Shown here in pieces: positions 47,262 to 61,832 of a stretch of DNA of 64,000 nucleotides. Under the pieces are notes generated by a model. The model did no database searches. It was not told the DNA's origin and saw nothing but the letters and a program-made list of their open reading frames with translations. The DNA comes from Lachnospiraceae bacterium (lineage in GTDB: Bacteria; Bacillota; Clostridia; Lachnospirales; Lachnospiraceae): assembly GCA_016288495.1 (NCBI GenBank), contig JAEEZH010000155.1, forward strand, positions 4,804-68,803. Direction: 5' to 3'. Both the position numbers and the translations under genes were made by a program. How positions within the stretch are numbered: position 1 is the first letter of the stretch; each line of letters starts with the position of its first letter.

Positions 47262-47405
47262 TTATATTTTTTCCTACCTGACAACTTTTATTTATAATAT
47301 ACGGTTGAATTTTATAGTTTTATCGAATGTCCGTCCATTCTATTATAACACGTGAATTACGTATGGTTAAGGGTCTGGGTGATTTTTTCTTGGGAAATCA
47401 GCAAT

Positions 47406-47690
47406 CTAAACACTACGCTGTCTGGCCACTTCCACAGTACTCATCACACTTTCTTCTTTTTTAACGTAATCCGCAAGGTAAGGAATACAAAACATCACCT
47501 TGCCTCGTTCCGGGCTCGCAATGATCCCCTGGTCTATGAGATATGCCCTGGGTCTGCTCAGTTTATTCTGAGTCATACCCATACTGCGTGCAATATCAGC
47601 CGTTGAGGCAAGACGTTCTGAGTCCAGGCATTCGGACATCTTCGTTAAATATGTCCGCTCACTATTCGGAAGAGATAAAATGGAGAACTG
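47406..47690 (-). pseudogene. 5'-truncated remnant of an AAA-ATPase-type gene (C-terminal winged-helix portion only)
   Basis: The open frame has no plausible N-terminus. It reads ...STADIARSMGMTQNKLSRPRAYLIDQGIIASPERGKV..., an HTH-like tail. The frame stays open to within about 10 nt of repeat copy A. The family call is from memory. Confidence 0.5.
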
Positions 47691-47700
47691 TTAAGATTCT

Positions 47701-47736
47701 CTTGAATGATCCTCTAAAAATGGTGTATCATTCAAC
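47701..47736 (+). repeat. 36-nt array repeat, copy A (5 substitutions, 4 of them stem-preserving), followed by a 10-nt partial re-duplication
   Basis: The copy is CTTGAATGATCCTCTAAAAATGGTGTATCATTCAAC, then TTGAATGATC at 47737-47746. Confidence 0.85.
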
Positions 47737-47809
47737 TTGAATGATCTTATAATGGTAAACCGAAGATCTTATATAGGTAATGAAGACTGATATGGCTAAG
47801 GAGAATAAC

Positions 47810-50437
47810 ATGAAGGTAAGACATTCGTTCAAGAAACTTGTTTCTGTTTTTATATCTTTGACGTTTATGGCGGCTTTGATCCCGCAATCTACCCTGGCAG
47901 ACGGCCCGGATCCGCAGCAAAGCCTTACCGGAATATCTGTCTCTGATACGAAGGATAGCGTAAACAGCGTATATGAACTGGCGGATTCACTTTATCAACG
48001 AAATTCGAACTTTGGCAGAAGAGCCGGCGGATTCATCTGGGATACCGAGGGAAAAAAGAGGAGCTGGACCTATTATAACGGTATCATGATGGATGCTTTT
48101 CTTACGATCGACAAGGAGGCCTATCTTCCCTGTGTAAACGATTATTATAATGAAAATATAACCAGCTCGGGGAAAGTTGACAGCACCGATGCAAGCGAAA
48201 ACTATTACAGGGAGAAGGAACTGGACTCTATCCCGCCTGCACGTGCTCTTTTTGATCTGATCCGGGAGAAGGATTATAATAAGTGTGCCGATAAATATAA
48301 AAAGACAATTAATTATATTTACAGTATTATGCAGTCATATGAGGTTGCAGAGGGGACCAACGGTAATTTTAAACACAAGATAGACAACAAAAACTGGGAG
48401 ACCTATCTGATCGCCCTTGATGGTCTCTATATGGCCCAGCCCTTTTTTATGGAAGTTGCAAATGCTCTTGATGATGGCATATTAATTGTCCAGGATTTTC
48501 AGACTTACACATGTGAAGTACCGGAATCCGATGACATCTACAGTGCTGTGACGGAACGTATGTTATGGATTGGCGAGAATCTTTATATACCCCAAAAGCA
48601 TCTGTATTGTCATGGCTGGGGGCCTGATGGCCTGAACGGACAATACTGGTTAAGGGCTGTCGGCTGGTACGCGGCTGCTCTTGCCGATGTTATCAGTATG
48701 CTTCCTAAAGATGGGTATGAGGAAGAAAAGGATGCCCTTATATTAACAGAAAAAAAGCTTTTTGATGGTATGCTGGAATACCGTGACGAGGCGACGGGCA
48801 TGTGGTATAACGTGATCGACCACGGGCCGGAGCTCGCAGGAAGCGGTTGCAACAATGAGCTTGAAACCTCCGGCACTGCTCTCATGGCTTATGCTATGAT
48901 GAAAACCTATGCGGAAGGATATCTGGACGATACTTACGGGGAAGCCGGCCTCATGGCGTTTAATGGTATAGTTAAGAATTATCTGGATTCCGAAGGACTT
49001 CACAATGTCTATATTTCTTCGGGAGTTGAGACTACTCCGGAAGGGTACCTTGGCAAAAGTTATAAGGTGAACGAGGCAAAGGGCGTAGGGCCGCTGATGA
49101 TGGCCGCGTCCTATGCAAATGCCGCTGCAGAGATTCACGCCGCACCGTCAGCTATCCTGACCGGTGGGGAGGATATGACCTTTGAAATCAACAAAACTCC
49201 GGATTTTTCCGGGGTTTCAGCCAATATCATTTATAATAACGGCACGTCCGTTACGGTGACGAGTGAAAAGCTGACATTCGGAGAATGTGACCCGACAGTG
49301 ACAGGACTTCAGGAAGTGGAGGTATATTACAAGGATATTAATTGTGGAAAGATAAGAGTAACATTTAAAGAACCGGATTCGGAAGATAAGCCGGGCAGTT
49401 CATCCTCGTCGTCAAGGACCAGCAGTTCGTCCTCGTCGTCAAGGACCAGCAGTTCGTCCTCATCGACAAGGACCAGCAGTTCGTCCTCGTCGACAAGAGA
49501 CAGCAGTTCGTCCTCGTCGACAAGAGACAGCAGTTCGTCTTCGTCGTCAAGGACCAGCAGTTCGTCCTCGTCGACAAGAGACAGCAGTTCGTCCTCATCG
49601 ACAAGGACCAGCAGTTCGTCCTCGTCGACAAGAGACAGCAGTTCGTCCTCGTCGGCAAAGGATGGCAGCTCGTCATCTACAGAAAAGGATAAGGACAGCA
49701 GCTCATCAATTGTTGCAGATAGGAAGGACAGCAGCAGCTCAAGTGTGGTTCCTTCCGGCACGTCGGGAGACGGTGACGAGAAAGACAGTACATCGGGCAG
49801 TGTGAAGGTGGTAAGCGAACCCACGCAGCCTGTGAGCGTTTCCATCGGCGGAACGCCTGTGCAGGTCAGAGTGGAACAGGAATATACCGCTGATACCGTA
49901 TATTCGGGCGAGGCCCTGACTCCCGAGTCTGCGGGGCTCAAGACTGATGTTTCCGGCCTTGAAGGCCTCGCAAAGACCGCTATTGAGAATTCGGCAGGAA
50001 ACGTGGCTTCAGCCGGGGATCTAAGCGGACTATTCACTGTGTCCTACAAGGCAAAGGGTAAGGGCGGAGCAGGCGAGACAGCCTTTACATCAAAGATCAA
50101 ATTCGATAAAAAACAGGCAAAGCAGCTGGGAATGAGCAAGGATGACATTAAGGCCCTGGCAAACGCAGTGAAGGCTCTGAATAAATTTCTGAAGCAGAAT
50201 CCCGCGAAGATACAGGTGGCGAAGGCTGACCTTGCCAAATGTTTTGAATCCATAGATGCGTCCTTCGACGCGAAGGGGAAGCTGAAGATAAACTCTGTTA
50301 CAGTGAAGCTTAATGAAAAAACAGTAACTCTTAAGAAGAAGGACTACAAGGTGACGGTATCAGACTCTGAAAAACGCACTGTGACCTTGGAGGGACGGAA
50401 AAACTATGAGGGTACCATCACTGTCACGTTGAAGTGA
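47810..50437 (+). CDS. Secreted GH105/GH88-like unsaturated glycuronyl/rhamnogalacturonyl hydrolase, fused to an Ig-like domain, a Ser-rich linker and a Lys-rich C-terminal module
   Basis: It has a signal peptide (FMAALIPQSTLA) and GH105/GH88-type motifs (WTYYNGIMMDAF, LDGLYMAQPFF, HGWGPD..YWLRAVGWY, ETSGTA). A (SSSSSS[RT][RT][DT]S)n linker follows. The C-terminal region resembles that of ORF 32-5521. The start was set at ATG 47810 after an AAGGAG RBS. Confidence 0.7.
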   Translation: MKVRHSFKKLVSVFISLTFMAALIPQSTLADGPDPQQSLTGISVSDTKDSVNSVYELADSLYQRNSNFGRRAGGFIWDTEGKKRSWTYYNGIMMDAFLTIDKEAYLPCVNDYYNENITSSGKVDSTDASENYYREKELDSIPPARALFDLIREKDYNKCADKYKKTINYIYSIMQSYEVAEGTNGNFKHKIDNKNWETYLIALDGLYMAQPFFMEVANALDDGILIVQDFQTYTCEVPESDDIYSAVTERMLWIGENLYIPQKHLYCHGWGPDGLNGQYWLRAVGWYAAALADVISMLPKDGYEEEKDALILTEKKLFDGMLEYRDEATGMWYNVIDHGPELAGSGCNNELETSGTALMAYAMMKTYAEGYLDDTYGEAGLMAFNGIVKNYLDSEGLHNVYISSGVETTPEGYLGKSYKVNEAKGVGPLMMAASYANAAAEIHAAPSAILTGGEDMTFEINKTPDFSGVSANIIYNNGTSVTVTSEKLTFGECDPTVTGLQEVEVYYKDINCGKIRVTFKEPDSEDKPGSSSSSSRTSSSSSSSRTSSSSSSTRTSSSSSSTRDSSSSSSTRDSSSSSSSRTSSSSSSTRDSSSSSSTRTSSSSSSTRDSSSSSSAKDGSSSSTEKDKDSSSSIVADRKDSSSSSVVPSGTSGDGDEKDSTSGSVKVVSEPTQPVSVSIGGTPVQVRVEQEYTADTVYSGEALTPESAGLKTDVSGLEGLAKTAIENSAGNVASAGDLSGLFTVSYKAKGKGGAGETAFTSKIKFDKKQAKQLGMSKDDIKALANAVKALNKFLKQNPAKIQVAKADLAKCFESIDASFDAKGKLKINSVTVKLNEKTVTLKKKDYKVTVSDSEKRTVTLEGRKNYEGTITVTLK
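49396..49660 (+). repeat. About ten tandem 27-bp coding repeats (SSSSSS-T/R-R/T-D/T-S)
   Basis: Reiteration of AGTTCGTCCTCGTCGACAAG(G/A)(A/G)ACAGC was read directly from the DNA. Confidence 0.9.
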
Positions 50438-50498
50438 AAAAGATCATTATTTATAAGCTGCTCAACTCAGAGTTGAGATATTTGAGGAGTAGATAACA

Positions 50499-51044
50499 AT
50501 GGAGCTGTTAGATGGAAGACCGGAGAATGTGGAGGGGCGCCTGCCTCGTGAGACGCGTACCTACGACCTTCTGGATTCTCTCGGTATTGATTATAAAAGA
50601 ACAGATCACGAACGGACAGATACCATGGAGGCCTGTAATGCTGTAGATGAGATCCTGGGTGTTGTGATATGCAAGAATCTTTTTCTTTGCAATCGTCAGA
50701 AAACGGCATTTTATCTTTTGATGATGCCGGGAGATAAGAAGTTTAAAACAAAGGAACTGTCTGCGCAGATAAATTCTGCAAGGCTTTCTTTTGCCCAGCC
50801 TGAGGATATGCTGAAGTATCTGGATATCGAGCCGGGAGCCGTGAGCATCATGGGGCTGATGAATGATGAGGATCGTGCAGTTCAGCTGCTGATCGATGAG
50901 GATGTATTGAAGGATGAGTATCTCGGATGTCATCCCTGTGTGAATACATCCAGTCTTAAGATACGCGTGGATGATGTGATAAAGAAGTTTCTGCCGGCCG
51001 TGGGACATGATTATAGGACTGTGCATTTGGTCGGAGATGATTAG
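50499..51044 (+). CDS. Prolyl-tRNA synthetase-associated (YbaK/ProX-type) aminoacyl-tRNA editing domain protein
   Basis: The pattern KNLFLCNRQKTAFYLLMMPGDKKFKTKELSAQINSARLSFA...PGAVSIMGL...HPCVNTSS is typical of this family. Confidence 0.85.
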   Translation: MELLDGRPENVEGRLPRETRTYDLLDSLGIDYKRTDHERTDTMEACNAVDEILGVVICKNLFLCNRQKTAFYLLMMPGDKKFKTKELSAQINSARLSFAQPEDMLKYLDIEPGAVSIMGLMNDEDRAVQLLIDEDVLKDEYLGCHPCVNTSSLKIRVDDVIKKFLPAVGHDYRTVHLVGDD

Positions 51045-51061
51045 GTGTGAAAAATTTCCGA

Positions 51062-51481
51062 TCAATGTTCGTGTACGCTCCGCCTCCTGATACTAAAAAA
51101 TCCGATGAGGTCAAAGACACCGGCCAGAGAATTTAGTATGTGGGCGAGCGGGAAGATCCCTCTTTTGATCATGGGGGTATTGTCCAGGCTGGCGGCAAAG
51201 CCGAGAAAGACCAGACCGTCAAGGCAGATCAGGGTCATGGAAATGGTTATGACCGTCAGAGCCAGAATTAAGGTGAGCTGACTTCTGGTAAATGAAGTCA
51301 GGACAGTGGCGATGTTGGTCAGGTACATGGCAAAAAACAATATGATCAGCCCGCCCCACCAGTCGCTTATTGAATTGAAATACACAATGGTATAATAGAT
51401 TTTGTATCCGAATGCCCCTATCGCGATAAAAAGTCCGATCAGCTTCCATATGCTGAATATTCCGTGTCCGGCGTTGTCCAT
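51062..51481 (-). CDS. Small four-helix membrane protein
   Basis: This 139-aa protein has four hydrophobic segments. I recognise no family. Confidence 0.45.
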   Translation of the reverse strand: MDNAGHGIFSIWKLIGLFIAIGAFGYKIYYTIVYFNSISDWWGGLIILFFAMYLTNIATVLTSFTRSQLTLILALTVITISMTLICLDGLVFLGFAASLDNTPMIKRGIFPLAHILNSLAGVFDLIGFFSIRRRSVHEH

Positions 51482-51731
51482 GTCTTTGTTCTCCTTTGCC
51501 GGTTATATGGTAACACAGCAGGCCGGATTTGTTAATATACCGGTAATGAAATAACCCTTTTTGTTTTCTCCGGCGATCAGCATTTGATTTGTTCATATCC
51601 TTCCGAAAGGTCGCTCTTTCATTGCATTTTTCCATAAAAAAACATATAATTTACATTGATTTTGCACGAGCAATTTGAAATAAGTAATGAGTTTCATGGT
51701 GCTGCTGATGACGGGGTTAAGGAGGTTAGGA

Positions 51732-52052
51732 ATGGCATCGAGTAAAGAATATCTGGATTATGTATTGGATCAGTTATCCGGGGCGGATGAGATAACTTAC
51801 AGGGCGATGATGGGAGAGTATATTATCTATTATCGCCGGAAAGTGATCGGCGGGATCTATGATGACCGGTTTCTTGTGAAGAATGTAAAATCAGCCAGAG
51901 ATATGATGCCGGATGCGGACCTGGAATTACCCTATGAAGGCGCCAAGGAGATGCTTTTGGTAGACGATGTCGAGAATAAGGAGTTCCTTAAAGAATTGAT
52001 GGAAGCGATGTTCGAAGAACTGCCGGCTCCGAAGAAAAAGAAAGAGAAGTAG
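51732..52052 (+). CDS. TfoX N-terminal domain family protein
   Basis: It reads EYLDYVLDQL...YRAMMGEYIIYYRRKVIGGIYDDRFLVK. An AAGGAGG RBS precedes ATG 51732. Confidence 0.7.
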   Translation: MASSKEYLDYVLDQLSGADEITYRAMMGEYIIYYRRKVIGGIYDDRFLVKNVKSARDMMPDADLELPYEGAKEMLLVDDVENKEFLKELMEAMFEELPAPKKKKEK

Positions 52053-52081
52053 GAGAGGAGTTTTGATGGAGCCCGGCGTTT

Positions 52082-52143
52082 TCTTTGGACGTGAAAAAAA
52101 AAAGTGTGATGAGTACTGCGGAAGTGGCCAGACAGCGTAAAGT
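52082..52143 (+). pseudogene. Second remnant (last ~12 codons, MSTAEVARQRKV*) of the same ATPase-type gene as 47406-47690, in the opposite orientation, ending 13 nt before repeat copy B
   Basis: About 60 nt align with the reverse complement of 47403-47465 (GTGTGATGAGTACTG(C/T)GGAAGTGGCCAGACAGCGTA...). Confidence 0.6.
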
Positions 52144-52156
52144 ATAGATCACTGCG

Positions 52157-52192
52157 CTTGAACGACCCGCTAAAAATGGTGTGTTGTTCAAC
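52157..52192 (+). repeat. 36-nt array repeat, copy B (1 substitution, A27>G)
   Basis: CTTGAACGACCCGCTAAAAATGGTGTGTTGTTCAAC. Confidence 0.95.
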
Positions 52193-52293
52193 AAAATGGA
52201 GCGTAAGGGATTAACTCGTGAAGAGGCGTATGAGGATATAATAAAAACCGCATCAAAGACAAATGAAGAATACGATAAAAGGTATGGCGTGAA

Positions 52294-52557
52294 ATGAAAT
52301 ACAAGTATAACATAAAAACCTATAATTCTCCGGATGCCTTTAGGATGGCTTGTATGGAATTTGAGAAGGAGTATCCAACTGCCAAAAAGAATGAAATGCT
52401 CGTTGATGTAGATGGATCAACTATCCAAGTTTACGCAACCGATGAAGGCGAAATGGTGATTTTTGATGATTATGATGTAGGGGCTGTTTTTGCAAATGCT
52501 GACTTTTTGATTCCTGAAACCTCTAAGCTTAATGATTTATTTGTGTTGATAAACTAA
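52294..52557 (+). CDS. Hypothetical small acidic protein (87 aa), immunity-protein-like in size and context
   Basis: This is a complete ORF. Its ATG overlaps the stop of an upstream gene fragment (ATGA), and its stop overlaps the next start (TAATG). Confidence 0.5.
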   Translation: MKYKYNIKTYNSPDAFRMACMEFEKEYPTAKKNEMLVDVDGSTIQVYATDEGEMVIFDDYDVGAVFANADFLIPETSKLNDLFVLIN

Positions 52558-52685
52558 TGGCTGTTGTATCCGTTCGTATAACCGATAACTCCGACGCTGT
52601 CCTGGCCGAGCTTGAGAAGCGTGCGAAGGTGGCGCTTGAAGCCGTGGGGATCCAGGCAGAGGGGCATTGCAAGCAGGAACTTGAA
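52557..52685 (+). pseudogene. First 43 codons of a gene (possibly a phage HK97-gp10-like tail-completion protein), cut by repeat copy C
   Basis: MAVVSVRITDNSDAVLAELEKRAKVALEAVGIQAEGHCKQELE runs straight into the repeat. The family guess is from memory and is weak. Confidence 0.4.
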
Positions 52686-52721
52686 CTTGAACGACCTGCT
52701 AAAAATGGTGTATTGTTCAAC
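52686..52721 (+). repeat. 36-nt array repeat, copy C (C12>T), preceded by a partial CTTGAA re-duplication
   Basis: CTTGAACGACCTGCTAAAAATGGTGTATTGTTCAAC. Confidence 0.95.
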
Positions 52722-52885
52722 AATACCGCCACCAATAGCAAGTTCAGCAAGTAAACCAATTCCCTCTAAAATCCCTATTTCTGCCGCAAATGTTGTACTT
52801 GTAAAATATTGACCAAATACAGATGAAACAAGTATAATTAAGGCCAAGAAAACAGCAGAAAGGGATTTTATCATGGAATTTATCA
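52722..52885 (-). pseudogene. 3'-truncated gene encoding a signal-peptide/TM N-terminus, cut by repeat copy C
   Basis: The minus-strand ORF M(INSM)IKSLSAVFLALIILVSSVFGQYFTSTTFAAEIGILEG... runs into the repeat without a stop of its own. Confidence 0.35.
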
Positions 52886-53133
52886 TGCCTTTTTTACAAA
52901 ACAAAAGACTTTTAATTTCACTTATTATAATCTTTTTATATACCATCATATCTATTACCCGAAGCAAAATGAAATCAAATTATTTTTCACTTCACAAGAA
53001 ACCCGTTCGTGAAAAATTAAAATGGACTCATCATTTCAATTTATTCAAACGAAAACAAAAGGATCAATATATCAAATGGTTAACCGAACACAAACGTAAA
53101 TGGTCTGAAGAACGGTGGAAACGCTTTAAATAA
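52873..53133 (+). CDS. Hypothetical small protein (TM segment plus a highly basic tail); the start is uncertain (alternative ATG 52966)
   Basis: The ORF lies in an AT-rich segment and its stop is 5 nt before copy D. I have no family and little support beyond the ORF itself. Confidence 0.3.
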   Translation: MEFIMPFLQNKRLLISLIIIFLYTIISITRSKMKSNYFSLHKKPVREKLKWTHHFNLFKRKQKDQYIKWLTEHKRKWSEERWKRFK

Positions 53134-53138
53134 TTCTT

Positions 53139-53174
53139 CTTGAACGACCTGCTAAAAATGGTGTATTGTTCAAC
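53139..53174 (+). repeat. 36-nt array repeat, copy D (C12>T)
   Basis: CTTGAACGACCTGCTAAAAATGGTGTATTGTTCAAC. Confidence 0.95.
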
Positions 53175-53278
53175 TAAAATGGGTATAGTTACGAAGGAAG
53201 TAAGAAACCATAAATACACTGTTGTAAATTATGGATTTGATAATTATAGGGTTATCAAAAGGAAGCGATTGAAATAGT

Positions 53279-53509
53279 ATGCCGAGTGAAAGAATACTGA
53301 AGGAACTTAATAAAAGAATTATACCGATCTGCAGAACTGATGAAGAACTAAGCGCGATTCCTTTATATGTCGAAACTGATAAATATCGCCAAAAACTGAT
53401 TGATTATATCGATATTGCGAAAAAACGTGGCGATGAAGTGACAGGCGATCAACTGATGATTCTTTTAATTACATTGTCTAACGAAGAGGAAAAAGATACT
53501 GAATTATAA
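53279..53509 (+). CDS. Hypothetical small acidic protein (76 aa)
   Basis: This is a complete ORF starting 1 nt after the stop of a 32-codon ORF/fragment (53178-53276). It is followed by a hairpin terminator. Confidence 0.5.
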   Translation: MPSERILKELNKRIIPICRTDEELSAIPLYVETDKYRQKLIDYIDIAKKRGDEVTGDQLMILLITLSNEEEKDTEL

Positions 53510-53513
53510 AAAG

Positions 53514-53540
53514 AAGGCACTTACAAACGTAGGTGCTTTT
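53514..53540 (+). terminator. Hairpin terminator abutting repeat copy E
   Basis: A GGCACTTAC-AAAC-GTAGGTGC stem is followed by TTTT. A near-identical hairpin occurs inverted at 61257-61287. Confidence 0.6.
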
Positions 53541-53576
53541 CTTGAACGACCTGCTAAAAATGGTGTATTGTTCAAC
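53541..53576 (+). repeat. 36-nt array repeat, copy E (C12>T)
   Basis: CTTGAACGACCTGCTAAAAATGGTGTATTGTTCAAC. Confidence 0.95.
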
Positions 53577-53660
53577 TGAAAAACTGGCGGGACTTTTGGA
53601 ACAGAATCTCAAAGATCCCTGGCCGGATGAGCTCAGGTCGAGGCTGAATGCGGCATATAC

Positions 53661-53696
53661 CTTGAACGACCCGCTAAAAATGGTGTATTGTTCAAC
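53661..53696 (+). repeat. 36-nt array repeat, copy F (consensus)
   Basis: CTTGAACGACCCGCTAAAAATGGTGTATTGTTCAAC. Confidence 0.95.
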
Positions 53697-53723
53697 ATGA
53701 TTTATTTAAGGAGCGAATTTATA

Positions 53724-55787
53724 ATGAAAAAGAGAGTTTTATCAATATTGTTGACCACTGTTTTTATGTTTTCGGCAGTTGCCTGTGCACAGCAGAATAC
53801 GGCCGGAATACCGACGGATAAAGTGCTAGACACTGAAGAGATAACTCAAAAAAATGACGACGACAAAGACACAAAAGAGGCTGCGAAGGGTTCTGAACAG
53901 ACAGGGGATTCAACATCTGAAACGGATATCGACAAAATTATTGATGATATGACTCTTCGTGATAAGGTGGAACAGATGATGGTTGTATCCTATCGAGTTT
54001 GGAAAGAGGTTCCTGAAAAGGATGAAGAATCAGATGCGGTGTCAGATAATGATTTGGCTGAGGATATTCCGGGTATCAATGTAACTGAATTAAATGATGA
54101 GATCCGTGATGACCTCAAAGGACATAAATACGGCGGTGTTCTTCTTTTTGGTGAAAACTTTAAGGATGCCGCCCAGACTGCAGGCCTTGTCTCAGACATA
54201 CAGGCCACCAATCAGGACGGGGGAGGCCTTTCCTTATTCATCTGCGTGGATCAGGAGGGCGGTAAAGTGGCCCGTGTCAGCTTTGGCACGACAGGCCCCG
54301 GCAATATGGCCCTGGGGGCAACCGGCGATGCAGGCAACGCCAAAGCAATGGCGGAAATATACGGAAAAGAGTTACAGCTTCTGGGAATCAATACGGACTT
54401 TGCTCCCGTGGTTGACGTTAATAATAATCCCAGTAACCCTGTCATAGGTATCCGTTCTTTCTCCGATTCACCTGAAACGGTTTCGGATTATGCCATTTCA
54501 TACATTGAAGGACTGCATGATGCAGGAACTATCGCCACCTTAAAGCATTTTCCGGGACATGGAAACACGGATACCGATTCCCATACCGGATTTCCCCGCA
54601 TTGACTCAAGTTATGATGAATTAAAGGAATTTGAGCTGATCCCCTTTAAGAAGGCCATCGATGCCGGCGCAGACATGGTCATGACTGCGCATATCCAGTA
54701 TCCTCAGATAGAGACTGAGAAATATATTTCTACCTCATCAGGTGAGGAGGTATATATACCCGCAACCATGAGCCATAAGATCCTTACGGACATACTCAAA
54801 GATGATATGGGATTTGAAGGTGTGGTGGTTTCGGATGCCTTGGATATGAAAGCCATCACGGAGAATTTTGCGGATGAGGATGTCCTCAGGATGACCATGA
54901 ACGCAGGCGTGGATTTCATCATACTTCCCGCCATATTTGATACAGCAGGTTTCAGACATGTTAATGAAATGGTGGAAACAGCCGTGAAACTCGCCGAGGA
55001 CGGAGATGTGGATGAAGAAACTATAGATGATTCCGTAAGACGTATCCTTAGATTAAAGGAAAAATACGGCATTCTTGAGCAGTCGGATTTCGCTCTGACG
55101 GACGAACAGATAAATGAGGCTGTATCCGGCGTGGGAAGCAGCGAAAACCGTGAGGTGGCATGGGAGATTACAAAGAAGGCACTTAGTCTTGTCAAAAATG
55201 ATAATGAGGCATTTCCCATAAATTTGGCTGATGACGAAACCACACTGATGCTTTTTGCTGCAAACTGCGAAGCCCAGGTCGGAACGGGAGAGTATGTCAG
55301 ACAAGAACTCATGGAACAGGGAATCATTTCTAATGAATCACATATAGCGATAATGAAAAATGATAAAGAAAATGAAACTGAATGTATGAATGCGGCTCTT
55401 GAGGCTGATCACTGCATACTGGTATATAAGACCTATAATGCAGCCTGCCTTGATCCTGCTACAGACGACGGTTATTCATCAGGCGTATTTGATAAGATCA
55501 TAGCCTCTCTGCATGAGAAAGAAAAGCAGGCAATTGTTGTAACCTGTCAGCTTCCTTATGATGCGGCAAGGTTTGGCGATGCTGATGCGATTCTTCTTTC
55601 CTATAATTTTTCAACGATAGATAAGGCAGTTCCCGAGTCGGGAGCCGGCAGCGCCTTTGCCCCCAATCTGGCCGCAGCCCTTATGGCCTGCTTCGGAGAC
55701 GGTGATGTGAGCGGCAAAGCGCCTGTTAAGATTCCGAAACTGGATGAAAAATATAAGTTTACGGAAGAGGTATTTGAAACCAGATGA
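53724..55787 (+). CDS. Secreted lipoprotein, glycoside hydrolase family 3 (beta-N-acetylhexosaminidase/beta-glucosidase-like)
   Basis: It has the lipobox FSAVAC, the GH3 N-domain motifs VDQEGGKVARV and LKHFPGHGNTDTDSHTG, and a C-terminal alpha/beta domain. An AAGGAG RBS precedes ATG 53724, which lies 28 nt after copy F. Confidence 0.9.
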   Translation: MKKRVLSILLTTVFMFSAVACAQQNTAGIPTDKVLDTEEITQKNDDDKDTKEAAKGSEQTGDSTSETDIDKIIDDMTLRDKVEQMMVVSYRVWKEVPEKDEESDAVSDNDLAEDIPGINVTELNDEIRDDLKGHKYGGVLLFGENFKDAAQTAGLVSDIQATNQDGGGLSLFICVDQEGGKVARVSFGTTGPGNMALGATGDAGNAKAMAEIYGKELQLLGINTDFAPVVDVNNNPSNPVIGIRSFSDSPETVSDYAISYIEGLHDAGTIATLKHFPGHGNTDTDSHTGFPRIDSSYDELKEFELIPFKKAIDAGADMVMTAHIQYPQIETEKYISTSSGEEVYIPATMSHKILTDILKDDMGFEGVVVSDALDMKAITENFADEDVLRMTMNAGVDFIILPAIFDTAGFRHVNEMVETAVKLAEDGDVDEETIDDSVRRILRLKEKYGILEQSDFALTDEQINEAVSGVGSSENREVAWEITKKALSLVKNDNEAFPINLADDETTLMLFAANCEAQVGTGEYVRQELMEQGIISNESHIAIMKNDKENETECMNAALEADHCILVYKTYNAACLDPATDDGYSSGVFDKIIASLHEKEKQAIVVTCQLPYDAARFGDADAILLSYNFSTIDKAVPESGAGSAFAPNLAAALMACFGDGDVSGKAPVKIPKLDEKYKFTEEVFETR

Positions 55788-55842
55788 GTTTTTCATTGTT
55801 TAAAAATTTAAAAATAGATTTCATGTATCCGGAAATAAAGCG

Positions 55843-56812
55843 ATGAAAAAAACTGATTTGTCCGTCATATTGATCTGTATATTATGTGGTTTTATATTCA
55901 CGGGCTGCGGAAAGCTTAAAGCCATCATGGATCCTAAATCCCAAAATGCAGGGGATTCACACAATAATGCAGTGTATGATGTATCATTACAGCATAAAGA
56001 TGAAATCGATAAAACTGAAGATATTCCTTTGACGGATTCTGAAAAAGATGATGATTTAAATAACAATAAAGATGCTGATCCTGATATGTCGGTGGCCGAT
56101 AAGGATGATACCATCTATGGTAACGGCGGACATTTCGTCAAGTATGGCGGAAAAATCTATTTCAGGGCGCCAGGAAAAGATGCCATGAATAAGGCCGCGC
56201 TTTGGGGCGAATATGATCATATAGGTGAGGCTGTAAGCAGCACCGTAACTTCATATGATCTCGAAACACATGAAACACAGGCTCTTTTTGAGGACACATC
56301 TATAGGGCCCATAGTCATATCAGGAGGGCGTTTTATCCTGGCCGGAATGGAGGCAGACGGAGACGGTCATGTGTATTCATTATCTTTAGACGGATCAGAT
56401 AAAAAAGAACTCCCGGGCAGTCGGATATATGCCACACAGCCTTCAGGAAAATATTTTGTCACAGGTGGCTATGAAGATGATAATAATCTTCACTTTTTCA
56501 TCTGTGATGATGAAGGCAGCTCTCATGAAGTAGATAATACATTGACACTTCATGATTTTGCCGGTATTTCGGATGATCACTTTTTTGTATAACCTGTGAA
56601 GGTGATGAAACCTATGGGAGTTTCGCAGGATATGAGCTTGAAACCGGTAATGAGATCCCTTACGGTCATTTCGGGGAAATATCCGAATATTATAATTATC
56701 CCGGCTTACCTGAATGTCTGGATACCGATGAAAACTCAGTATATCTGCAGATGTCCGCATATGAAGGCACCGGTAATTTTTATTCCTCCAGCAAGTGGAA
56801 TAAGGCAGATTT
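55843..56812 (+). pseudogene. Lipoprotein gene, frameshifted in a T6 run (56581-56586) and 3'-truncated by repeat copy G
   Basis: It has the lipobox FTGC. The ORF stops at 56592, but the adjacent frame continues without stops (CITCEGDETYGSFAGYELETG...SSSKWNKADF) right into the repeat. Confidence 0.6.
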
Positions 56813-56848
56813 CTTGAACGACCCGCTAAAAATGGTGTATTGTTCAAC
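56813..56848 (+). repeat. 36-nt array repeat, copy G (consensus)
   Basis: CTTGAACGACCCGCTAAAAATGGTGTATTGTTCAAC. Confidence 0.95.
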
Positions 56849-57326
56849 CAGGCGACTATATATATATATGACCGGCACAATGTACACAGCCAGAGACGCC
56901 GCCCACAAAAGGATGATGGAAACTCTGGATAAGGAAGAAGCGCTTCCTCTCGATATTGACGGAGCCACCATATATTATATGGGCCCTTCCCCTGCAAGAG
57001 AGGGCAGGCCTATAGGTTCTGCGGGACCGACTACAGCCGGACGAATGGATAAATACGCTCCCAGGCTTCTCGATCTGGGTCTTAACGCCATGATCGGAAA
57101 GGGGAGACGTACAAAGCAGGTCAAAGATGCCATCATCAGGAATGGCGCAGTATATATCGCCGCAGTCGGCGGAGCCGGCGCTCTTTTATCAAAATGCATT
57201 AAGAGCTCTAAAGTGATCGCCTATGATGATCTCGGAACCGAAGCCATAAGAAGGCTTGAGGTTGAAGATTTTCCCGTGATAGTTGTATTTGACAGCAAAG
57301 GAAACGATCTGTACGACCCGGATTAA
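56849..57326 (+). pseudogene. Class I (Fe-S) fumarate hydratase/tartrate dehydratase beta subunit, missing roughly its first 15-25 codons (an internal ATG at 56868 could still be called as a start)
   Basis: The sequence ...TGTMYTARDAAHKRM...GPSPAREGRPIGSAGPTTAGRMD...IGKG...AAVGGAGAL is the conserved beta-subunit core. Homology begins immediately at the 3' edge of copy G. Confidence 0.7.
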
Positions 57327-57369
57327 CGATAATTACATATATCTTTGTTCAGTCTTCTTCATTTCATTA

Positions 57370-58047
57370 TTAACACTTCATTTTCTTCAGCGTGCCTTTA
57401 ACAAGCGCAGCTGAAAAAGGCATGCAAAACTGCGCTACCGGTCCGACCAGGAATGCGCAGATTATGGTTCCGACTCCAAATCTGCCTCCGGGAAAAAAAC
57501 CGATGAGTACAAATAACACATCAGTGATGATCCTCACGATGCCAAATGGTTTGCCGCTTTTTTCGCTTATGACAACAGCGACAAGGTCATTGGGTCCCGT
57601 ACCGGCTTCCGAGCGTATGACGATGGACATCCCGAAAGCAAGGATCACACATCCCAGGATAAGAACTGGGATCTTGACTGCAAGATCCGACTCACTGATA
57701 CTGAGAGGCTCCAGCAACAAGGTGAACAGATCGATAATCGGTCCCCCGCAGAACATACAGACTACAGTCCCCGCCTTTACATAGCTTCTGCCTGAAACAA
57801 GAAGTATCAGTATTATCAAAAAACACACGCACATATGCACCGTCCCGTGTGTCGGTGTGATCAGACCTGTTTTAATTATGAGCAGGCGAAGACCCTGTAT
57901 AAGTACGTTAAAGGGATCTGCTCCCAGATCCGCAAGTATGAATAAGGTGACGCCAAGATGTGCGACCACAAGTCCCAGAAATAGCAGACAAAGCCGGACT
58001 GTCTTTTCACGCAGCTTTTCGCTCATTTTATATCTTGTCTCCTCCAT
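57370..58047 (-). CDS. Polytopic membrane protein (YczE/DUF6198-like)
   Basis: This 225-aa protein has six hydrophobic segments and the motif LADLGADPFNVLIQGL. The family assignment is from memory. Confidence 0.5.
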   Translation of the reverse strand: MEETRYKMSEKLREKTVRLCLLFLGLVVAHLGVTLFILADLGADPFNVLIQGLRLLIIKTGLITPTHGTVHMCVCFLIILILLVSGRSYVKAGTVVCMFCGGPIIDLFTLLLEPLSISESDLAVKIPVLILGCVILAFGMSIVIRSEAGTGPNDLVAVVISEKSGKPFGIVRIITDVLFVLIGFFPGGRFGVGTIICAFLVGPVAQFCMPFSAALVKGTLKKMKC

Positions 58048-58152
58048 AGGTTTATATCTAACTTATTCCATCCTGAAGTCATCAGGATTCCGTCATGCAC
58101 GTCGTGCCTGCCACCTCATGACGAATGTTACCGATCCCGCAACTTGCCTGTC

Positions 58153-59700
58153 CTATATTTGAAATTTCAGCTTTTTTGTCTGCAACGCAGGTTCGAACGG
58201 TATCCGGTTCTGCTTTTCTGAATCTGCCTGTGTATACCGGCTGTTTTCTCTTTCCTGGATCTTTGCCTTTTCCATGATGGCTTTCCAGGACGGAGATAAG
58301 ATATAGTAGGCTATCATACACAGCATGCCAAAGCTGAATGAGATCGGGAAGCAAAGCATTATAAAGGTGCCGTCAAAATACCGGGTTATGAGCCATGCGC
58401 TCGGGATCCGGACTGCCCAGAGCATTAGGATATTGATGACCGTGGTATATCTTACCTTTCCCGTGCCGTTCACTATACAGATGATGCCGTTGAAGATGGC
58501 GTAAAACCACTGGGAAAGCAGCATGACCACAACATATCTGCCGGCATACATGAGCACCTCTTCATCCTTTGAAAAGATCCTGAGTATCGGCATCCTCACA
58601 AAGATGAATAAAAGGCCAAAGCCAAGAGTGATCAATCCCGAAAATACGGGGATTATTATATGTCCCTGCTTAAGCCTCATGTAGTTTCTGGCTCCGAAAT
58701 TCTGGCCGGAAAAAGCAGTGGCTGCTGAAGAAAGACCGGCAATTGCTATGTTTGAAAGTCCGGTGATCCTTCCGGCTACGGAATTACCCGCCATGAATAC
58801 CGAGCCCTGCATATTGACCATGGACTGAATAGCCACGTGTCCAAAGGAATACAATGAATTATTAAGTCCTATCGGAAGACCGATCGCCATCATTTCCTTA
58901 AACTCGGGCAAATACAGATGTCCGGGCAGAAAAGTGAATCCTATTCGCGGAAATCTCTTCTTTATATACAGGATGCTGGCAAGCCATGAAAGAAGCATTG
59001 CAAGGGAGGTAGCGACAGCAACTCCGCTTACGTCCATTCCGAAGCCTGCTACCAGTACTACATCAAGGATTATATTGACAACACATGAAACCAGAAGAAA
59101 TAACAGAGATGCAAAGCTGTCACCAAGACCCCTTAAGATCCCGGCATTAACATTATATCCGATATTTCCCAAAGCACCAAGTAAAACTATACGTGTATAT
59201 ATAAGCGCTGCTTCAAAGGTGTCTGCGGGAACATTCATGAACCGCAGCATATGGGGAGTGTAAAACCATCCCAGGACAGCAATGGGTATGCCGCACAGAT
59301 AGACAAAGGATATGGTGGTGTCGCTGATCCTACGTATCTTTTCATTGTCACCGGCTCCTACACACTGTGAAATGAGAATGGAAATCCCGGTCCCGATTCC
59401 AAGGAAAATGCATAAAAGCACTTCCACGGGCTGGGAGCTGGTGCCCACCGCGGCGAGGGAGGTATGTCCGCAGTAGGCGCCGATCACCAGCGTATCTACG
59501 GTAGTATATAAATACTGAAGAATGTTTCCGATGATGATAGGAACGGCAAACAGCAGAACCTTTCCCATTATGGAACCTCTTGTCATATCTATGCTTTTTG
59601 CTCTTTTTCTTACCCTGCTCATGATGATAACCTCATAATCCGGATTGAACAATGCATGTTTCCAATCCCCTGTCTGTTCTATAGCCTTATGATACATCAT
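58153..59700 (-). CDS. MATE-family efflux transporter
   Basis: This is a 12-TM protein with a typical MATE N-terminus (DMTRGSIMGKVLLFAVPIIIGNILQ). The true start is probably internal (for example ATG 59622), and the C-terminal tail is unusually long. Confidence 0.85.
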   Translation of the reverse strand: MMYHKAIEQTGDWKHALFNPDYEVIIMSRVRKRAKSIDMTRGSIMGKVLLFAVPIIIGNILQYLYTTVDTLVIGAYCGHTSLAAVGTSSQPVEVLLCIFLGIGTGISILISQCVGAGDNEKIRRISDTTISFVYLCGIPIAVLGWFYTPHMLRFMNVPADTFEAALIYTRIVLLGALGNIGYNVNAGILRGLGDSFASLLFLLVSCVVNIILDVVLVAGFGMDVSGVAVATSLAMLLSWLASILYIKKRFPRIGFTFLPGHLYLPEFKEMMAIGLPIGLNNSLYSFGHVAIQSMVNMQGSVFMAGNSVAGRITGLSNIAIAGLSSAATAFSGQNFGARNYMRLKQGHIIIPVFSGLITLGFGLLFIFVRMPILRIFSKDEEVLMYAGRYVVVMLLSQWFYAIFNGIICIVNGTGKVRYTTVINILMLWAVRIPSAWLITRYFDGTFIMLCFPISFSFGMLCMIAYYILSPSWKAIMEKAKIQERENSRYTQADSEKQNRIPFEPALQTKKLKFQI

Positions 59701-59846
59701 AAAATAATGTTTATCTTTTGTATTGATTGCCGTATTTGGTAAAAAATTATTATTTCATGCTGTTATTACTTGAAATATGACAGAATTACGGCTTGTTATG
59801 ATCATATCTGCCCTGTATAATAATTACATGAGGATCGGAGGATAAT

Positions 59847-60698: not shown

Positions 60699-60800
60699 GA
60701 ATTACTATTCGTATGATCAAACAAAGTTGTTGCTGTTGCGACTGGAATTACCAACAATATGTTGATGGATTGTGGATAACTTCACACTATATATAGTGAA

Positions 60801-61150: not shown

Positions 61151-61186
61151 CTTGAACGACCCGCTAAAAATGGTGTATTGTTCAAC
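61151..61186 (+). repeat. 36-nt array repeat, copy H (consensus)
   Basis: CTTGAACGACCCGCTAAAAATGGTGTATTGTTCAAC. Confidence 0.95.
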
Positions 61187-61412
61187 ACAACATACCCGGT
61201 GGGTGTCTGGCGGCCGACTCTCGTCTTCGCCATAACATTCCCTCCTTTTGTGTATTAAAAAAGCACCTATGTTTGTAAGTGCTTTTTATACATCTCTATA
61301 ATTATCCCGCTCTAAAATGACTTGATATTATTCCAAATATATAATATATAATAACTAAGAGATGAGCCGGTGCACCCACACCCCTTTTTGGTGAGGGCCG
61401 ACACTATAAGGC

Positions 61413-61700: not shown

Positions 61701-61779
61701 ATTATCTCTGGAAGCGCTTCAATATTCCCGCCAAATGTGTTATAAAGAAGTCTCATATTTTCTTCTTCACGATTTTTCA

Positions 61780-61815: not shown

Positions 61816-61832
61816 TGAGGGGGAATTTATTT

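What the first reader, a model, noticed from the sequence alone, without database searches (positions are those of the whole stretch)
52193..53660. Inter-repeat segments are pieces of unrelated operons cut flush at the repeat edges
Segment B-C (493 bp) is a slice through a tightly packed operon. It holds the last ~33 codons of one gene (...EEAYEDIIKTASKTNEEYDKRYGVK*), a complete 87-aa ORF overlapping it by ATGA, and the first 43 codons of a third gene overlapping by TAATG. That third gene is cut by copy C.

Segment E-F is only 84 bp and is an open frame with no start or stop (EKLAGLLEQNLKDPWPDELRSRLNAAY).

Other genes truncated exactly at a repeat edge:
- Segment C-D contains a minus-strand signal-peptide gene whose 3' part is removed by copy C.
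- 61187-61233 has a minus-strand RBS plus MAKTRVGRQTPTGYV, cut by copy H.
- 62331-62404 has an N-terminal membrane segment cut by copy J.
- 55843-56812, 56849-57326 and 60801-61150 are also cut at repeat edges.

Truncations on both sides and on both strands, always exactly at the 36-mer boundary, argue that DNA pieces were inserted between repeats (spacer- or cassette-like acquisition). The alternative is that deletions start precisely at the repeat edge. Ordinary decay of tandemly integrated islands would not give this pattern.
Basis: seen in the sequence. Interest (0 to 1): 0.75.

Follow-up and report, generated by a model that had tools for sequence, protein, structure and literature searches.

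The report
Cas9-less CRISPR-type array with gene-sized spacers
A 36-bp CRISPR-type repeat occurs ten times in 15 kb of this gut-type bacterial chromosome and separates 84 to 4,420-bp pieces of phage and bacterial genes cut exactly at the repeat edges; related bacteria carry the same kind of array next to cas1-cas2 with no Cas9, which suggests a spacer-acquisition machine that stores gene-sized DNA rather than 30-bp tags.

Summary
Nine near-identical direct copies and one diverged copy of a 36-mer lie at 47701-62440. They separate segments of 84-4420 bp whose terminal genes are cut flush at the repeat edges. Homology confirms this for a phage MuF-like gene tail, both fumarase subunits, a DUF5050 lipoprotein and the 84-bp E-F piece.

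The 36-mer is a CRISPR-type repeat. In four related lineages from public assemblies, a homologous repeat follows a short conserved leader directly downstream of type II cas1-cas2. No cas9 or tracrRNA is present. All 25 distinct spacers measured are 84-4420 bp, and they hold fragments of phage, toxin and housekeeping genes.

cas1 keeps its catalytic residues, and cas1 and cas2 are under strong purifying selection. Two loci with identical Cas1 differ at the leader-proximal end of the array. Spacer ends show a strand-symmetric T at position -3 from each 3' end, which replicated in a hold-out set.

The best reading is capture of long DNA by Cas1-Cas2 integrase chemistry, followed by truncations at repeat edges. 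The window itself has no cas genes or leader, so it is an orphan array. The mechanism is inferred, not shown. I found no prior description.

The parts
47701..47736 (+). Repeat copy A, diverged (CTTGAATGATCCTCTAAAAATGGTGTATCATTCAAC). It is followed at once by a partial second copy (TTGAATGATCTTATAATGG, 47737-47755).
   Evidence: It has 6 differences from the consensus. Two of them keep the terminal dyad paired (C7-G30 becomes T7-A30).
47737..52156 (+). Segment A-B (4420 bp). It holds a GH88-domain secreted protein, a YbaK-like gene and a TfoX-like gene. Its last ~56 bp are an inverted copy (89%) of the 3' end of the truncated gene left of A (47404-47459).
   Evidence: GC is 46.4%.
52157..52192 (+). 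Repeat copy B, with one mismatch (G at position 27).
52193..52685 (+). Segment B-C (493 bp), a slice of a phage head-morphogenesis module. 52193-52294 is the last ~33 codons of a MuF-like minor capsid gene. 52294-52557 is a complete 87-aa ORF. 52557-52685 is the first 43 codons of a third gene, cut by C.
   Evidence: IMG/VR contig L022. The same junction with C is present in L036.
52686..52721 (+). Repeat copy C (T at position 12).
52722..53138 (.). Segment C-D (417 bp, GC 30.7%). It holds a minus-strand signal-peptide ORF running into C and a plus-strand 86-aa ORF.
   Evidence: No family hits. Identical in L036.
53139..53174 (+). Repeat copy D (T at position 12).
53175..53540 (+). Segment D-E (366 bp, GC 33.1%). 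It holds 32-aa and 76-aa ORFs and a terminator-like hairpin (53514-53540) that ends flush at E.
   Evidence: (I1). Identical in L036.
53541..53576 (+). Repeat copy E (T at position 12).
53577..53660 (+). Segment E-F (84 bp). It is the first 84 bp of a longer spacer that survives in another strain, truncated flush at F.
   Evidence: L036 continues past position 84 with no repeat, as an ORF of at least 285 aa with a Bmp/PnrA domain.
53661..53696 (+). Repeat copy F.
53697..56812 (+). Segment F-G (3116 bp). It holds an intact GH3 lipoprotein gene (53724-55787) and a DUF5050-like lipoprotein gene (55843-56812) that is frameshifted at a T-run near 56585 and cut at its 3' end by G.
   Evidence: GC is 43.4%, below every same-size window of the flanking 47 kb.
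56813..56848 (+). Repeat copy G.
56849..61150 (.). Segment G-H (4302 bp), a composite. 56850-57326 (+) is fumarase beta lacking about 30 N-terminal codons. Then come YitT-like (-), MatE (-), AraC (+) and its terminator. About 60843-61150 (-) is an internal fumarase alpha fragment, joined to the AraC terminator without a repeat and cut flush by H.
   Evidence: GC is 44.9%.
61151..61186 (+). Repeat copy H.
61187..61779 (-). Segment H-I (593 bp, GC 35.2%). On the minus strand it holds a frameshifted toxin C-terminal fragment (CdiA_C-like, 61416-61779), a terminator hairpin (61259-61285), then an RBS and MAKTRVGRQTPTGYV (61233-61187) cut by H.
   Evidence: (I1).
61780..61815 (+). Repeat copy I.
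61816..62404 (+). Segment I-J (589 bp). It holds a complete 150-aa membrane protein ORF (61833-62285) and the first 24 codons of a membrane protein (62331-62404) cut by J.
   Evidence: The junction with J is confirmed in L009.
62405..62440 (+). Repeat copy J, the last copy.
62441..63300 (+). Tail after J. It holds 87-aa and 146-aa ORFs and a terminator near 63270-63300. GC is 41.3%, atypical for the flank, so this is probably the last captured piece.
47404..47700 (-). Left flank of the array. It is the C-terminal wHTH-type fragment of a truncated gene (77-aa ORF, 47406-47639). There is no leader-like sequence and no cas gene.

Best explanation
The 36-mer is the repeat of a CRISPR-type array belonging to an effector-less, type II-derived cas1-cas2 adaptation module found in Lachnospiraceae-like gut bacteria. 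In this family each 'spacer' is a long DNA fragment, 84 bp to more than 4 kb, rather than about 30 bp.

Proposed mechanism. Cas1-Cas2 joins the two 3'-OH ends of a linear double-stranded fragment to the two borders of a repeat. Gap repair then duplicates the 36-bp repeat. Every captured piece therefore ends flush at intact repeats, whatever genes its ends fell in. Sources are phage, other mobile DNA and other bacteria. With no Cas9 or Csn2 partner and no interference, nothing measures the fragment and nothing counter-selects odd or self-like spacers.

The same chemistry, or breaks repaired at the repeat borders, later trims or inverts spacers from the repeat edge. That would give partial spacers such as E-F and composite ones such as G-H.

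The array in this window has lost, or never had, an adjacent cas1-cas2 and leader. It is an orphan array.

Shown: the repeat family; its link to leader plus cas1-cas2 in other genomes; long fragmentary spacers in all of them; flush truncations; array turnover between close strains; intact and selected Cas1 and Cas2.

Inferred: that Cas1-Cas2 performs the insertions and the flush truncations, and that the system is active now.
For: 1. Link to cas genes. In L001 the order is clpC, radA, cas1, cas2, a 76-nt leader, then a repeat that differs from the window consensus by 1 nt.

2. Cas identity. Cas1 is type II: TIGR03639 at 240 bits against a cut-off of 120, full length. Cas2 matches TIGR01573. 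The closest named relative is 'type II CRISPR-associated endonuclease Cas1 [Tyzzerella sp.]'.

3. Four lineages share the architecture. L011-13, L017-21, L027-30 and L033-35 show cas1-cas2, then a 67-87-nt leader ending in A(C/T)(T/A)AAAT(G/A)TA.., then homologous 36-bp repeats. No cas9 lies within 10 kb upstream and no anti-repeat was found.

4. Spacer lengths. The 25 distinct spacers in the window and these cas1-cas2 loci are 84-4420 bp; none is near 30 bp. An IMG/VR contig adds spacers of 271-8839 bp.

5. Spacer content elsewhere is also fragmentary. Examples are SPP1 portal at profile 303-409 of 416 and AsnA at 88-172 of 228. MuF, Prp, Gln_amidase toxin and IS66 pieces also occur.

6. Cas1 looks functional. 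It keeps the E/H/E catalytic residues when aligned to E. faecalis and S. pyogenes Cas1. dN/dS is 0.04-0.06 for cas1 and 0.10 for cas2, with saturated dS.

7. CRISPR-like polarity. L017 and L019 encode identical Cas1. They share distal spacers in the same order and differ at the leader end.

8. End signature. With each junction written as the 3' end joined to the repeat, T at -3 occurs in 39 of 64 ends (p 2e-8). It is seen separately on both sides of the repeat. It replicates in a hold-out set at 13 of 21 (p 0.005). A terminal C is rare. This symmetry fits a reaction acting on both 3' ends of a fragment.

9. Composition. Five of the nine inter-repeat segments have GC below every same-size window of the flanking 47 kb, including the two 3-4 kb segments (F-G and G-H) that carry 'housekeeping' genes.

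10. Flush truncation is seen directly between strains. In L006 the first ~25 codons of cas1 abut a repeat.
Against: - The window holds no cas1, cas2 or leader-like sequence. The link rests on repeat homology to other genomes.
- No acquisition event was observed.
- From established knowledge of type II-A systems, Cas1-Cas2 uses a fixed molecular ruler of about 30 bp and needs Cas9 and Csn2 in vivo. Integration of kilobase DNA by a type II Cas1-Cas2 is unprecedented.
- The most diverged copy, A, lies on the side where the leader would be expected.
- One junction, near 60.85 kb, joins two unrelated pieces with no repeat. L033 has three repeats in each orientation. Other rearrangement processes are therefore also at work.
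- Some modules are decaying: cas1 is frameshifted in L001 and cas2 is shortened in L027-L029.
- Whether cas9 exists elsewhere in these genomes could not be checked.
- The -4 T enrichment did not replicate.
Confidence: 0.6

Rival explanations
1. The array is a decayed CRISPR remnant. An ordinary type II array lost cas9 and then most of its spacers. The long stretches between surviving repeats arose from unrelated insertions, deletions and homologous recombination between repeats. Cas1-Cas2 played no part.
For: No effector genes are present. Some cas1 or cas2 copies are frameshifted or shortened. Composite spacers and an inverted sub-array show generic rearrangement. The window has no cas genes.
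Against: - Not one ~30-bp spacer or spacer remnant is left beside any of more than 40 repeats.
- Gene homology runs right up to the repeat edge.
- Repeats within an array are identical, with 5-7 perfect copies, which does not fit old relics.
- Recombination between repeats removes whole units and cannot create new unrelated inserts flush at both edges.
- cas1 and cas2 are under strong purifying selection in four cas9-less lineages.
- Spacer ends carry a replicated symmetric signature.
Confidence: 0.15
2. The array is a cassette system run by a site-specific recombinase, in the manner of an integron or pdif module. The 36-mer would be a recombination site with inverted arms and a central region. 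A tyrosine or large serine recombinase would insert and excise circular cassettes there, sometimes using secondary sites.
For: The 36-mer has 8-9-bp terminal inverted arms. Large serine recombinase genes lie directly upstream of cas1 in two lineages. Segment sizes resemble integron cassettes. Copies in L002, L004 and L030 look like half-sites.
Against: - No recombinase lies near the array in the window or in the radA-linked and methyltransferase-linked lineages.
- The one constant neighbour is cas1-cas2 plus a conserved leader.
- Crossover inside a site gives hybrid sites and junctions within the repeat. It does not give perfect repeats with breaks exactly at both outer edges.
- Large serine recombinases leave only a 2-bp shared core (established knowledge).
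- Cassettes would be expected to be complete units, not arbitrary gene slices.
Confidence: 0.1
3. The 36-mer is a miniature mobile repeat, like a REP or MITE. A transposase acting in trans would insert it into intergenic DNA and cause adjacent deletions or inversions, as IS26 does on a larger scale.
For: Single copies occur in other contigs, for example L005, where a copy sits between a stop codon and a terminator-like hairpin. Flush adjacent deletions and inversions are classic outcomes of intramolecular transposition.
Against: - The copies are clustered in one 15-kb stretch, all in one orientation, and absent from the other 49 kb.
- The sequences on the two sides of a copy are never halves of one interrupted gene.
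- No transposase is associated.
- In four lineages the first copy sits at a fixed distance from cas2, behind a conserved leader.
- The apparent single copies mostly lie within about 1 kb of a contig end, so they may be array edges.
Confidence: 0.07
4. The pattern is an assembly or chimera artefact, with unrelated contigs joined at a short shared sequence.
For: The source is a draft contig of 74.6 kb whose proteins are unique in the collection.
Against: Independent metagenome contigs reproduce the junctions B-C|C|C-D|D|D-E|E and I-J|J, with 1-2 SNPs. The same architecture appears in many assemblies made with k-mers far longer than 36.
Confidence: 0.02

Closest known systems
Type II CRISPR-Cas adaptation module (Cas1-Cas2, leader, 36-bp repeat array)
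   Same: In related loci Cas1 and Cas2 are bona fide type II family members. The repeat is 36 bp with terminal inverted arms. A short A/T-rich leader with a conserved leader-repeat junction precedes it. Repeats are perfect duplicates. Inserts are flush at both repeat borders. Variation is leader-proximal.
   Different: No cas9, csn2, cas4 or tracrRNA is present. Spacers are 84-4420 bp instead of about 30 bp, and they include whole genes and bacterial housekeeping fragments. Spacers are later truncated or inverted from the repeat edge. The window's array has no cas genes at all.
Casposons (Cas1-solo 'casposase' transposons)
   Same: A Cas1-family integrase inserts kilobase-sized DNA and duplicates the target site. 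This is the only known precedent for Cas1 integrating long DNA (established knowledge).
   Different: Casposons carry their own Cas1, a PolB and terminal inverted repeats, and they move as defined elements. Here Cas1 is the type II CRISPR form, paired with Cas2. The inserts have arbitrary ends and no terminal inverted repeats, and the duplicated target is a fixed repeat behind a leader.
Integrons (intI, attI and attC gene-cassette arrays)
   Same: A chromosomal or MGE-borne array holds many 0.4-4 kb units separated by a conserved short repeat. The units are compositionally foreign, and many carry small ORFs, including toxin or immunity-like genes.
   Different: There is no tyrosine integrase. 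The repeat is not attC-like. Units are arbitrary slices through genes and operons rather than ORF-plus-attC cassettes. The associated genes are cas1-cas2.
IS26-type arrays of translocatable units
   Same: Direct copies of one element separate unrelated gene fragments that are cut flush at the element's edges. Flush adjacent deletions and inversions occur.
   Different: The repeated element here is 36 bp and encodes nothing. It sits in a leader-anchored array linked to cas1-cas2.
Recombinase-associated acquired interbacterial defence (rAID-1) clusters of Bacteroidales (recalled from memory, Ross et al. 2019; not checked here)
   Same: Arrays of orphan immunity genes and toxin fragments are separated by a conserved intergenic repeat in gut bacteria. 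The window has a CdiA_C toxin fragment, and L017 and L019 have a Gln_amidase toxin with small downstream ORFs.
   Different: rAID clusters are headed by a tyrosine recombinase. Here the partner is cas1-cas2, and the content is far broader, covering phage head genes, glycosidases and fumarase.

Membership tests
CRISPR array | Direct repeats of about 23-55 bp, near-identical within the array | tested here: met
   There are ten 36-bp copies, nine with at most 1 mismatch.
CRISPR array | Regular spacing by unique spacers of similar, short length (about 21-72 bp) | tested here: not met
   Spacers are 84-4420 bp in the window, and 271-8839 bp in related loci and an IMG/VR contig.
CRISPR array | Adjacent leader and cas1-cas2 adaptation genes | tested here: inconclusive
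   Both are absent from the 64-kb window. Both are present next to homologous repeats in four related lineages.
CRISPR array | Spacers derived from mobile genetic elements | tested here: inconclusive
   B-C is a slice of a phage head module, and other loci hold portal, MuF and Prp pieces. No near-identical protospacer was found. Several spacers carry ordinary bacterial genes.
Type II CRISPR-Cas system | Cas9 effector and tracrRNA with an anti-repeat | tested here: not met
   There is no cas9 in the window or within 10 kb upstream of cas1 in L011, L017, L027 and L033. No anti-repeat longer than 12 nt was found. The rest of each genome was not searchable.
Type II CRISPR-Cas system | Type II family Cas1 and Cas2 (related loci only) | tested here: met
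   Cas1 matches TIGR03639 at 240 and 233 bits against a cut-off of 120. Cas2 matches TIGR01573. Catalytic E/H/E residues are conserved.
Integron | IntI tyrosine integrase next to attI | tested here: not met
   The left neighbour of the array is a GGDEF protein. The ORFs scanned in the rest of the window are ordinary chromosomal genes, with no integrase among them.
Integron | attC sites: imperfect inverted repeats of 57-141 bp at the 3' end of complete promoterless cassettes | tested here: not met
   The repeat is 36 bp and identical between units. Units begin and end inside genes.
Casposon | Self-encoded Cas1-solo with PolB, terminal inverted repeats and a target-site duplication | tested here: not met
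   Cas1 is paired with Cas2 and belongs to the type II family. No terminal inverted repeats were seen at the segment ends.
REP/MITE-type dispersed repeat | Copies dispersed through the genome in intergenic DNA, with flanks continuous across the insert | tested here: not met
   All copies lie within 47.7-62.4 kb in one orientation. The flanks of each copy are unrelated. Only 64 kb of the genome could be examined.

The most novel reading that the evidence does not exclude
A clade of type II Cas1-Cas2 integrases in gut Lachnospiraceae and their mobile elements has been freed from Cas9 and from the ~30-bp ruler. It now works as a general DNA-capture platform, writing gene-sized fragments of phage and foreign bacterial DNA behind a leader. 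On this reading it is a 'CRISPR-derived integron'. The arrays would supply expressed cargo, such as immunity genes, enzymes, or decoy fragments of phage structural proteins, or long antisense or homology-based memory. The window would show a 15-kb product of that process.
Probability: 0.3. Interest if true: 0.92.

Novelty: new variant of a known kind. Interest (0 to 1): 0.8.

Why it matters
If Cas1-Cas2 really writes kilobase fragments into these arrays, CRISPR adaptation is not tied to short spacers or to interference. An adaptation module could persist under selection without an effector. That would be a second natural route, besides integrons, by which bacteria and their mobile elements collect foreign genes at one site.

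It would also bear on two open questions. One is how Cas1 moved from a casposon transposase, which handles long DNA, to a spacer integrase, which handles short measured DNA. The other is what effector-less cas1-cas2 loci do.

There are practical consequences too. Such an integrase would interest developers of DNA-recording and large-insert genome-writing tools. Arrays of this kind are invisible to CRISPR finders and can be mistaken for prophage by virus-prediction tools, as with the IMG/VR contigs.

Tried and rejected
- Rfam and tRNA/tmRNA scans of the window gave no hits, so the repeat is not a known RNA gene or a tRNA-derived att site.
- blastn of the short segments against phage and plasmid collections found nothing. 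tblastn of the 43-aa gene start against phages also found nothing, so no protospacer or PAM could be defined.
- PHROGs and Pfam scans of the small ORFs gave only one usable hit, CdiA_C.
- Exact-protein look-ups for several window proteins failed or returned only contigs shorter than 2 kb. The look-up of the source-contig protein P0121 failed.
- A fumarase-beta relative (L031) showed the normal fumA-fumB operon but no synteny with YitT, MatE or AraC. The source locus of G-H remains unknown.
- The idea that the repeat encodes a peptide (LERPAKNGVLFN) was dropped. That frame does not continue into the flanks. The one coding match, L003, is a chance hit in a BspA-type leucine-rich repeat gene.
- A sigma-70-like promoter inside the repeat, as in Neisseria type II-C, was not called by the scan.
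- Covariation in the repeat's terminal dyad is not significant: one double change, with 185 of 500 shuffles scoring as high.
- L006's resemblance to the window at 9.4-11.5 kb is only a shared histidine-kinase or receiver domain.
- Seven literature searches found no description of long-spacer cas1-cas2 arrays.
Full report
**The observation.** The 36-mer CTTGAACGACCYGCTAAAAATGGTGTATTGTTCAAC occurs nine times with at most one mismatch, always on the + strand, between 52157 and 62440. Shuffled sequence gives none. A tenth, diverged copy (A) lies at 47701-47736. The nine intervals are 4420, 493, 417, 366, 84, 3116, 4302, 593 and 589 bp. The rest of the window has no copy. It is ordinary chromosome: flagellin, histidine kinases, GGDEF/EAL proteins, CopA, MnmA, YajC and MscS. 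It has no Rfam, tRNA or tmRNA hit.

**Are the genes really cut at the repeat edges?** Yes, wherever homology allows a test.

- Right of B, the first 34 codons match the extreme C-terminus of an 848-aa MuF-like minor capsid protein in viral contig L022. That gene is followed there, with overlapping stop and start, by a 49%-identical homologue of the window's 87-aa ORF. B-C is therefore a 493-bp slice of a phage head module.
- Right of G, the fumarase beta subunit begins at Pfam profile position 49 of 205. Full-length relatives are 173-184 aa, and about 30 N-terminal residues are missing here.
- Left of H, on the minus strand, there is only the middle of the alpha subunit, profile 125-226 of 270. 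Its far end abuts the AraC terminator with no repeat.
- Left of G, a DUF5050-like lipoprotein gene is frameshifted in a T-run and still open when it hits the repeat.
- H-I carries a frameshifted CdiA_C toxin-domain fragment.
- The remaining claimed fragments rest on reading frames and translation signals only.

**Independent confirmation and a flush truncation.** Two contigs from a separate metagenome assembly reproduce the junctions. L009 equals window 62381-63227 with two mismatches. L036 equals 52571-53660 with one mismatch, including repeats C, D and E.

L036 adds a key fact. After the 84 bp that make up E-F in the window, it has no repeat. It continues for at least 737 bp as an ORF of at least 285 aa with a Bmp/PnrA domain.

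**What the 36-mer is.** Pattern scans of public collections found few copies, but one was decisive. In a Faecalimonas MAG (L001) the order is clpC, radA, cas1, cas2, a 76-nt leader, then a repeat one nucleotide different from the window's consensus. An alpha/beta-hydrolase ORF that reads straight out of the repeat follows it; it had no family hit, so its truncation is inferred from sequence only.

That Cas1 is a type II Cas1. It scores 240 bits against TIGR03639, whose cut-off is 120, and its best named relative is 'type II CRISPR-associated endonuclease Cas1'.

I looked up the contexts of four Cas1 relatives at 79-90% identity. Each gave the same architecture in a different genomic setting:

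- after radA (L011-16);
- after a large serine recombinase that is variably truncated at its 5' end (L017-21);
- after an HD protein and a methyltransferase (L027-30);
- after three tandem serine recombinases on what looks like a mobile element (L033-35).

Every locus reads cas1, cas2, a 67-87-nt A/T-rich leader with a conserved last dozen bases, then homologous 36-bp repeats. None has cas9 within 10 kb upstream, and none has an anti-repeat.

**Spacers across the family.** The 25 distinct spacers in the window and these loci measure 84-4420 bp, with a median near 770 bp. None is near 30 bp. An IMG/VR contig with at least seven repeats adds spacers of 271-8839 bp.

Their content is fragmentary, as in the window. 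It includes the last quarter of an SPP1-type portal, the middle of AsnA, MuF, Prp and scaffold genes, a Gln_amidase toxin, IS66 and resolvase pieces, Fic, and a CPBP protease.

**Is the module alive?**

- Cas1 aligns with the E. faecalis and S. pyogenes structures, and the catalytic Glu, His and Glu are conserved.
- Between lineages, dN/dS is 0.04-0.06 for cas1 and 0.10 for cas2, with synonymous sites saturated.
- L017 and L019 encode identical Cas1, yet their arrays differ. Distal spacers are shared in order at 93-99% identity, while leader-proximal ones differ. This is the polarity expected of CRISPR acquisition.
- The shared spacers have staggered ends. L017 spacer 2 starts at position 432 of L019 spacer 5. 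L017 spacer 3 starts at position 138 of L019 spacer 6. Part of L019 spacer 5 is an inverted copy of sequence from L017 spacer 1.
- In L006 the first ~25 codons of cas1 directly abut a repeat. This shows how a flush deletion can orphan an array.
- Against continued activity everywhere, cas1 is frameshifted in L001 and cas2 is shortened in L027-L029.

**An end signature.** I wrote every spacer-repeat junction as the 3' end of the strand that would be joined to the repeat. Position -3 is T in 39 of 64 distinct ends, against a background of 27% (p 2e-8). The enrichment is seen separately at left and right junctions. A terminal C is rare, at 3 of 64.

In a hold-out set from IMG/VR contigs, T at -3 recurs in 13 of 21 ends (p 0.005) and terminal C in 1 of 21. 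A weaker -4 signal did not replicate. A signature that is symmetric on the two strands fits a reaction acting on both 3' ends of a linear fragment. It fits crossover at a site less well.

**Origin of the pieces.** Five of the nine inter-repeat segments have GC content below every same-size window of the flanking 47 kb. They include the 3-4 kb segments that carry GH3, MatE, AraC and fumarase (F-G and G-H). B-C and I-J fall in the lowest 2% (the tail after J in the lowest 1%), while A-B and E-F are unremarkable. The segments therefore look imported rather than native chromosome that repeats have invaded. No near-identical source was found, so no PAM could be read.

**Mechanism, and what is inferred.** The simplest account uses the known chemistry of Cas1-Cas2. 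The two 3'-OH ends of a DNA fragment attack the two borders of a repeat, and repair duplicates the repeat. This explains four features: perfect repeats, inserts flush at both edges whatever their sequence, leader-end polarity, and a strand-symmetric end preference.

What is new is fragment length and the absence of any effector. In the type II-A systems studied so far, length and PAM choice depend on the Cas1-Cas2 ruler together with Cas9 and Csn2 (established knowledge). A module without those partners might accept any fragment long enough to loop both ends into the complex. That step is my inference.

Flush truncations and inversions could arise when a broken 3' end inside a spacer attacks a repeat border in the same molecule. 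This would be the analogue of intramolecular transposition, and it is also inferred.

I put 0.6 on this overall account. I put about 0.9 on the narrower statement that the 36-mer belongs to a cas9-less, type II-derived cas1-cas2 repeat family with long fragmentary spacers.

**Rivals.**

- A passively decayed CRISPR remnant does not explain the total lack of short spacers, the identical repeats, the selection on cas1-cas2 or the end signature.
- A site-specific recombinase cassette system lacks a constant recombinase. It would also place junctions inside the site rather than at its outer edges.
- A REP/MITE-like element does not fit the clustering, the single orientation, the unrelated flanks or the fixed leader.
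- Assembly artefact is excluded for the junctions covered by L009 and L036.

**Comparison with known systems and novelty.** The array works like CRISPR adaptation and is built from type II parts. It fails two defining tests for a CRISPR-Cas system, namely short regular spacers and an effector. It resembles integrons and IS26 arrays in outcome and casposons in insert size, but it meets none of their defining features. Seven full-text searches found no description of such arrays. I class it as a new variant of a known kind.

**Limits.**

- Only 64 kb of the source genome could be seen.
- The genome-wide and metagenome-wide scans were single-shot, and they used a pattern that missed variants ending in ...TTCAAT.
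- Nothing here demonstrates activity.

Noticed in passing
window 49341-49718: About 14 tandem copies of a 27-nt unit (80-92% identity) lie inside the 885-aa GH88-domain secreted protein. This gives a 9-residue coding repeat in the C-terminal half.
   Followed up: no
window 29478-34403: A 1641-aa ORF has flagellin N- and C-terminal domains (Pfam Flagellin_N and Flagellin_C) flanking about 1400 residues of insert. That is a giant flagellin.
   Followed up: no
window 39540-42215: An 891-aa ORF has no Pfam or NCBIfam hit at all. It sits in an otherwise ordinary chromosomal stretch and is followed by a GNAT acetyltransferase.
   Followed up: partly
window 53514-53540 (+) and 61259-61285 (-): The same 27-nt terminator-like hairpin, 93% complementary, occurs in two different low-GC spacers in opposite orientation. 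In D-E it ends flush at repeat E. In H-I it lies 73 nt from H. The two pieces probably come from related mobile elements.
   Followed up: partly
window 47404-47459 (-) and 52094-52149 (+): A 56-bp inverted duplication at 89% identity. The 3' end of the truncated gene left of copy A reappears, inverted, as the last bases of segment A-B just before copy B.
   Followed up: partly
window 47737-47755: Copy A is followed directly by a second, partial and degenerate repeat start (TTGAATGATCTTATAATGG) with no spacer between them.
   Followed up: no
window 53646-53660 and 56798-56812: The 15 nt upstream of repeats F and G resemble each other (GAATGCGGCATATAC and GAATAAGGCAGATTT, 9 of 15). This may be chance.
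   Followed up: no
L017 8407, L021 5021, L020 859-2553: The large serine recombinase gene upstream of cas1 is cut at different 5' positions in different contigs (564, 462 and 402 aa). Each has a different upstream flank, and there is no repeat at the break. The whole recombinase-cas1-cas2-array block seems to sit in different contexts.
   Followed up: partly
L033 11286-16147: One array has three repeats in + orientation followed by three in - orientation. This is either an inversion inside the array or two convergent arrays.
   Followed up: no
L002 4872-4907 and L004 6571-6606 (minus strand): A variant copy keeps only the right two-thirds of the repeat (CCAATACGATACACTAAAAATGGTGTATCGTTCAAC). 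It forms a different hairpin (ACGATACAC/GTGTATCGT). In L002 it follows a leader-like AAAATGTACTA, with no cas genes nearby.
   Followed up: partly
L003 508-543: The right half of the repeat matches by chance the coding sequence SKNGVLFNKD of a BspA-type leucine-rich repeat protein in a Bacteroidales MAG. This is a warning about false positives when scanning with this pattern.
   Followed up: yes
L037 and L040 (IMGVR_UViG_3300028570_000015): A 42.9-kb contig classed as viral in IMG/VR carries at least seven repeats of this family. It was possibly called viral because its spacers are full of phage gene fragments.
   Followed up: partly
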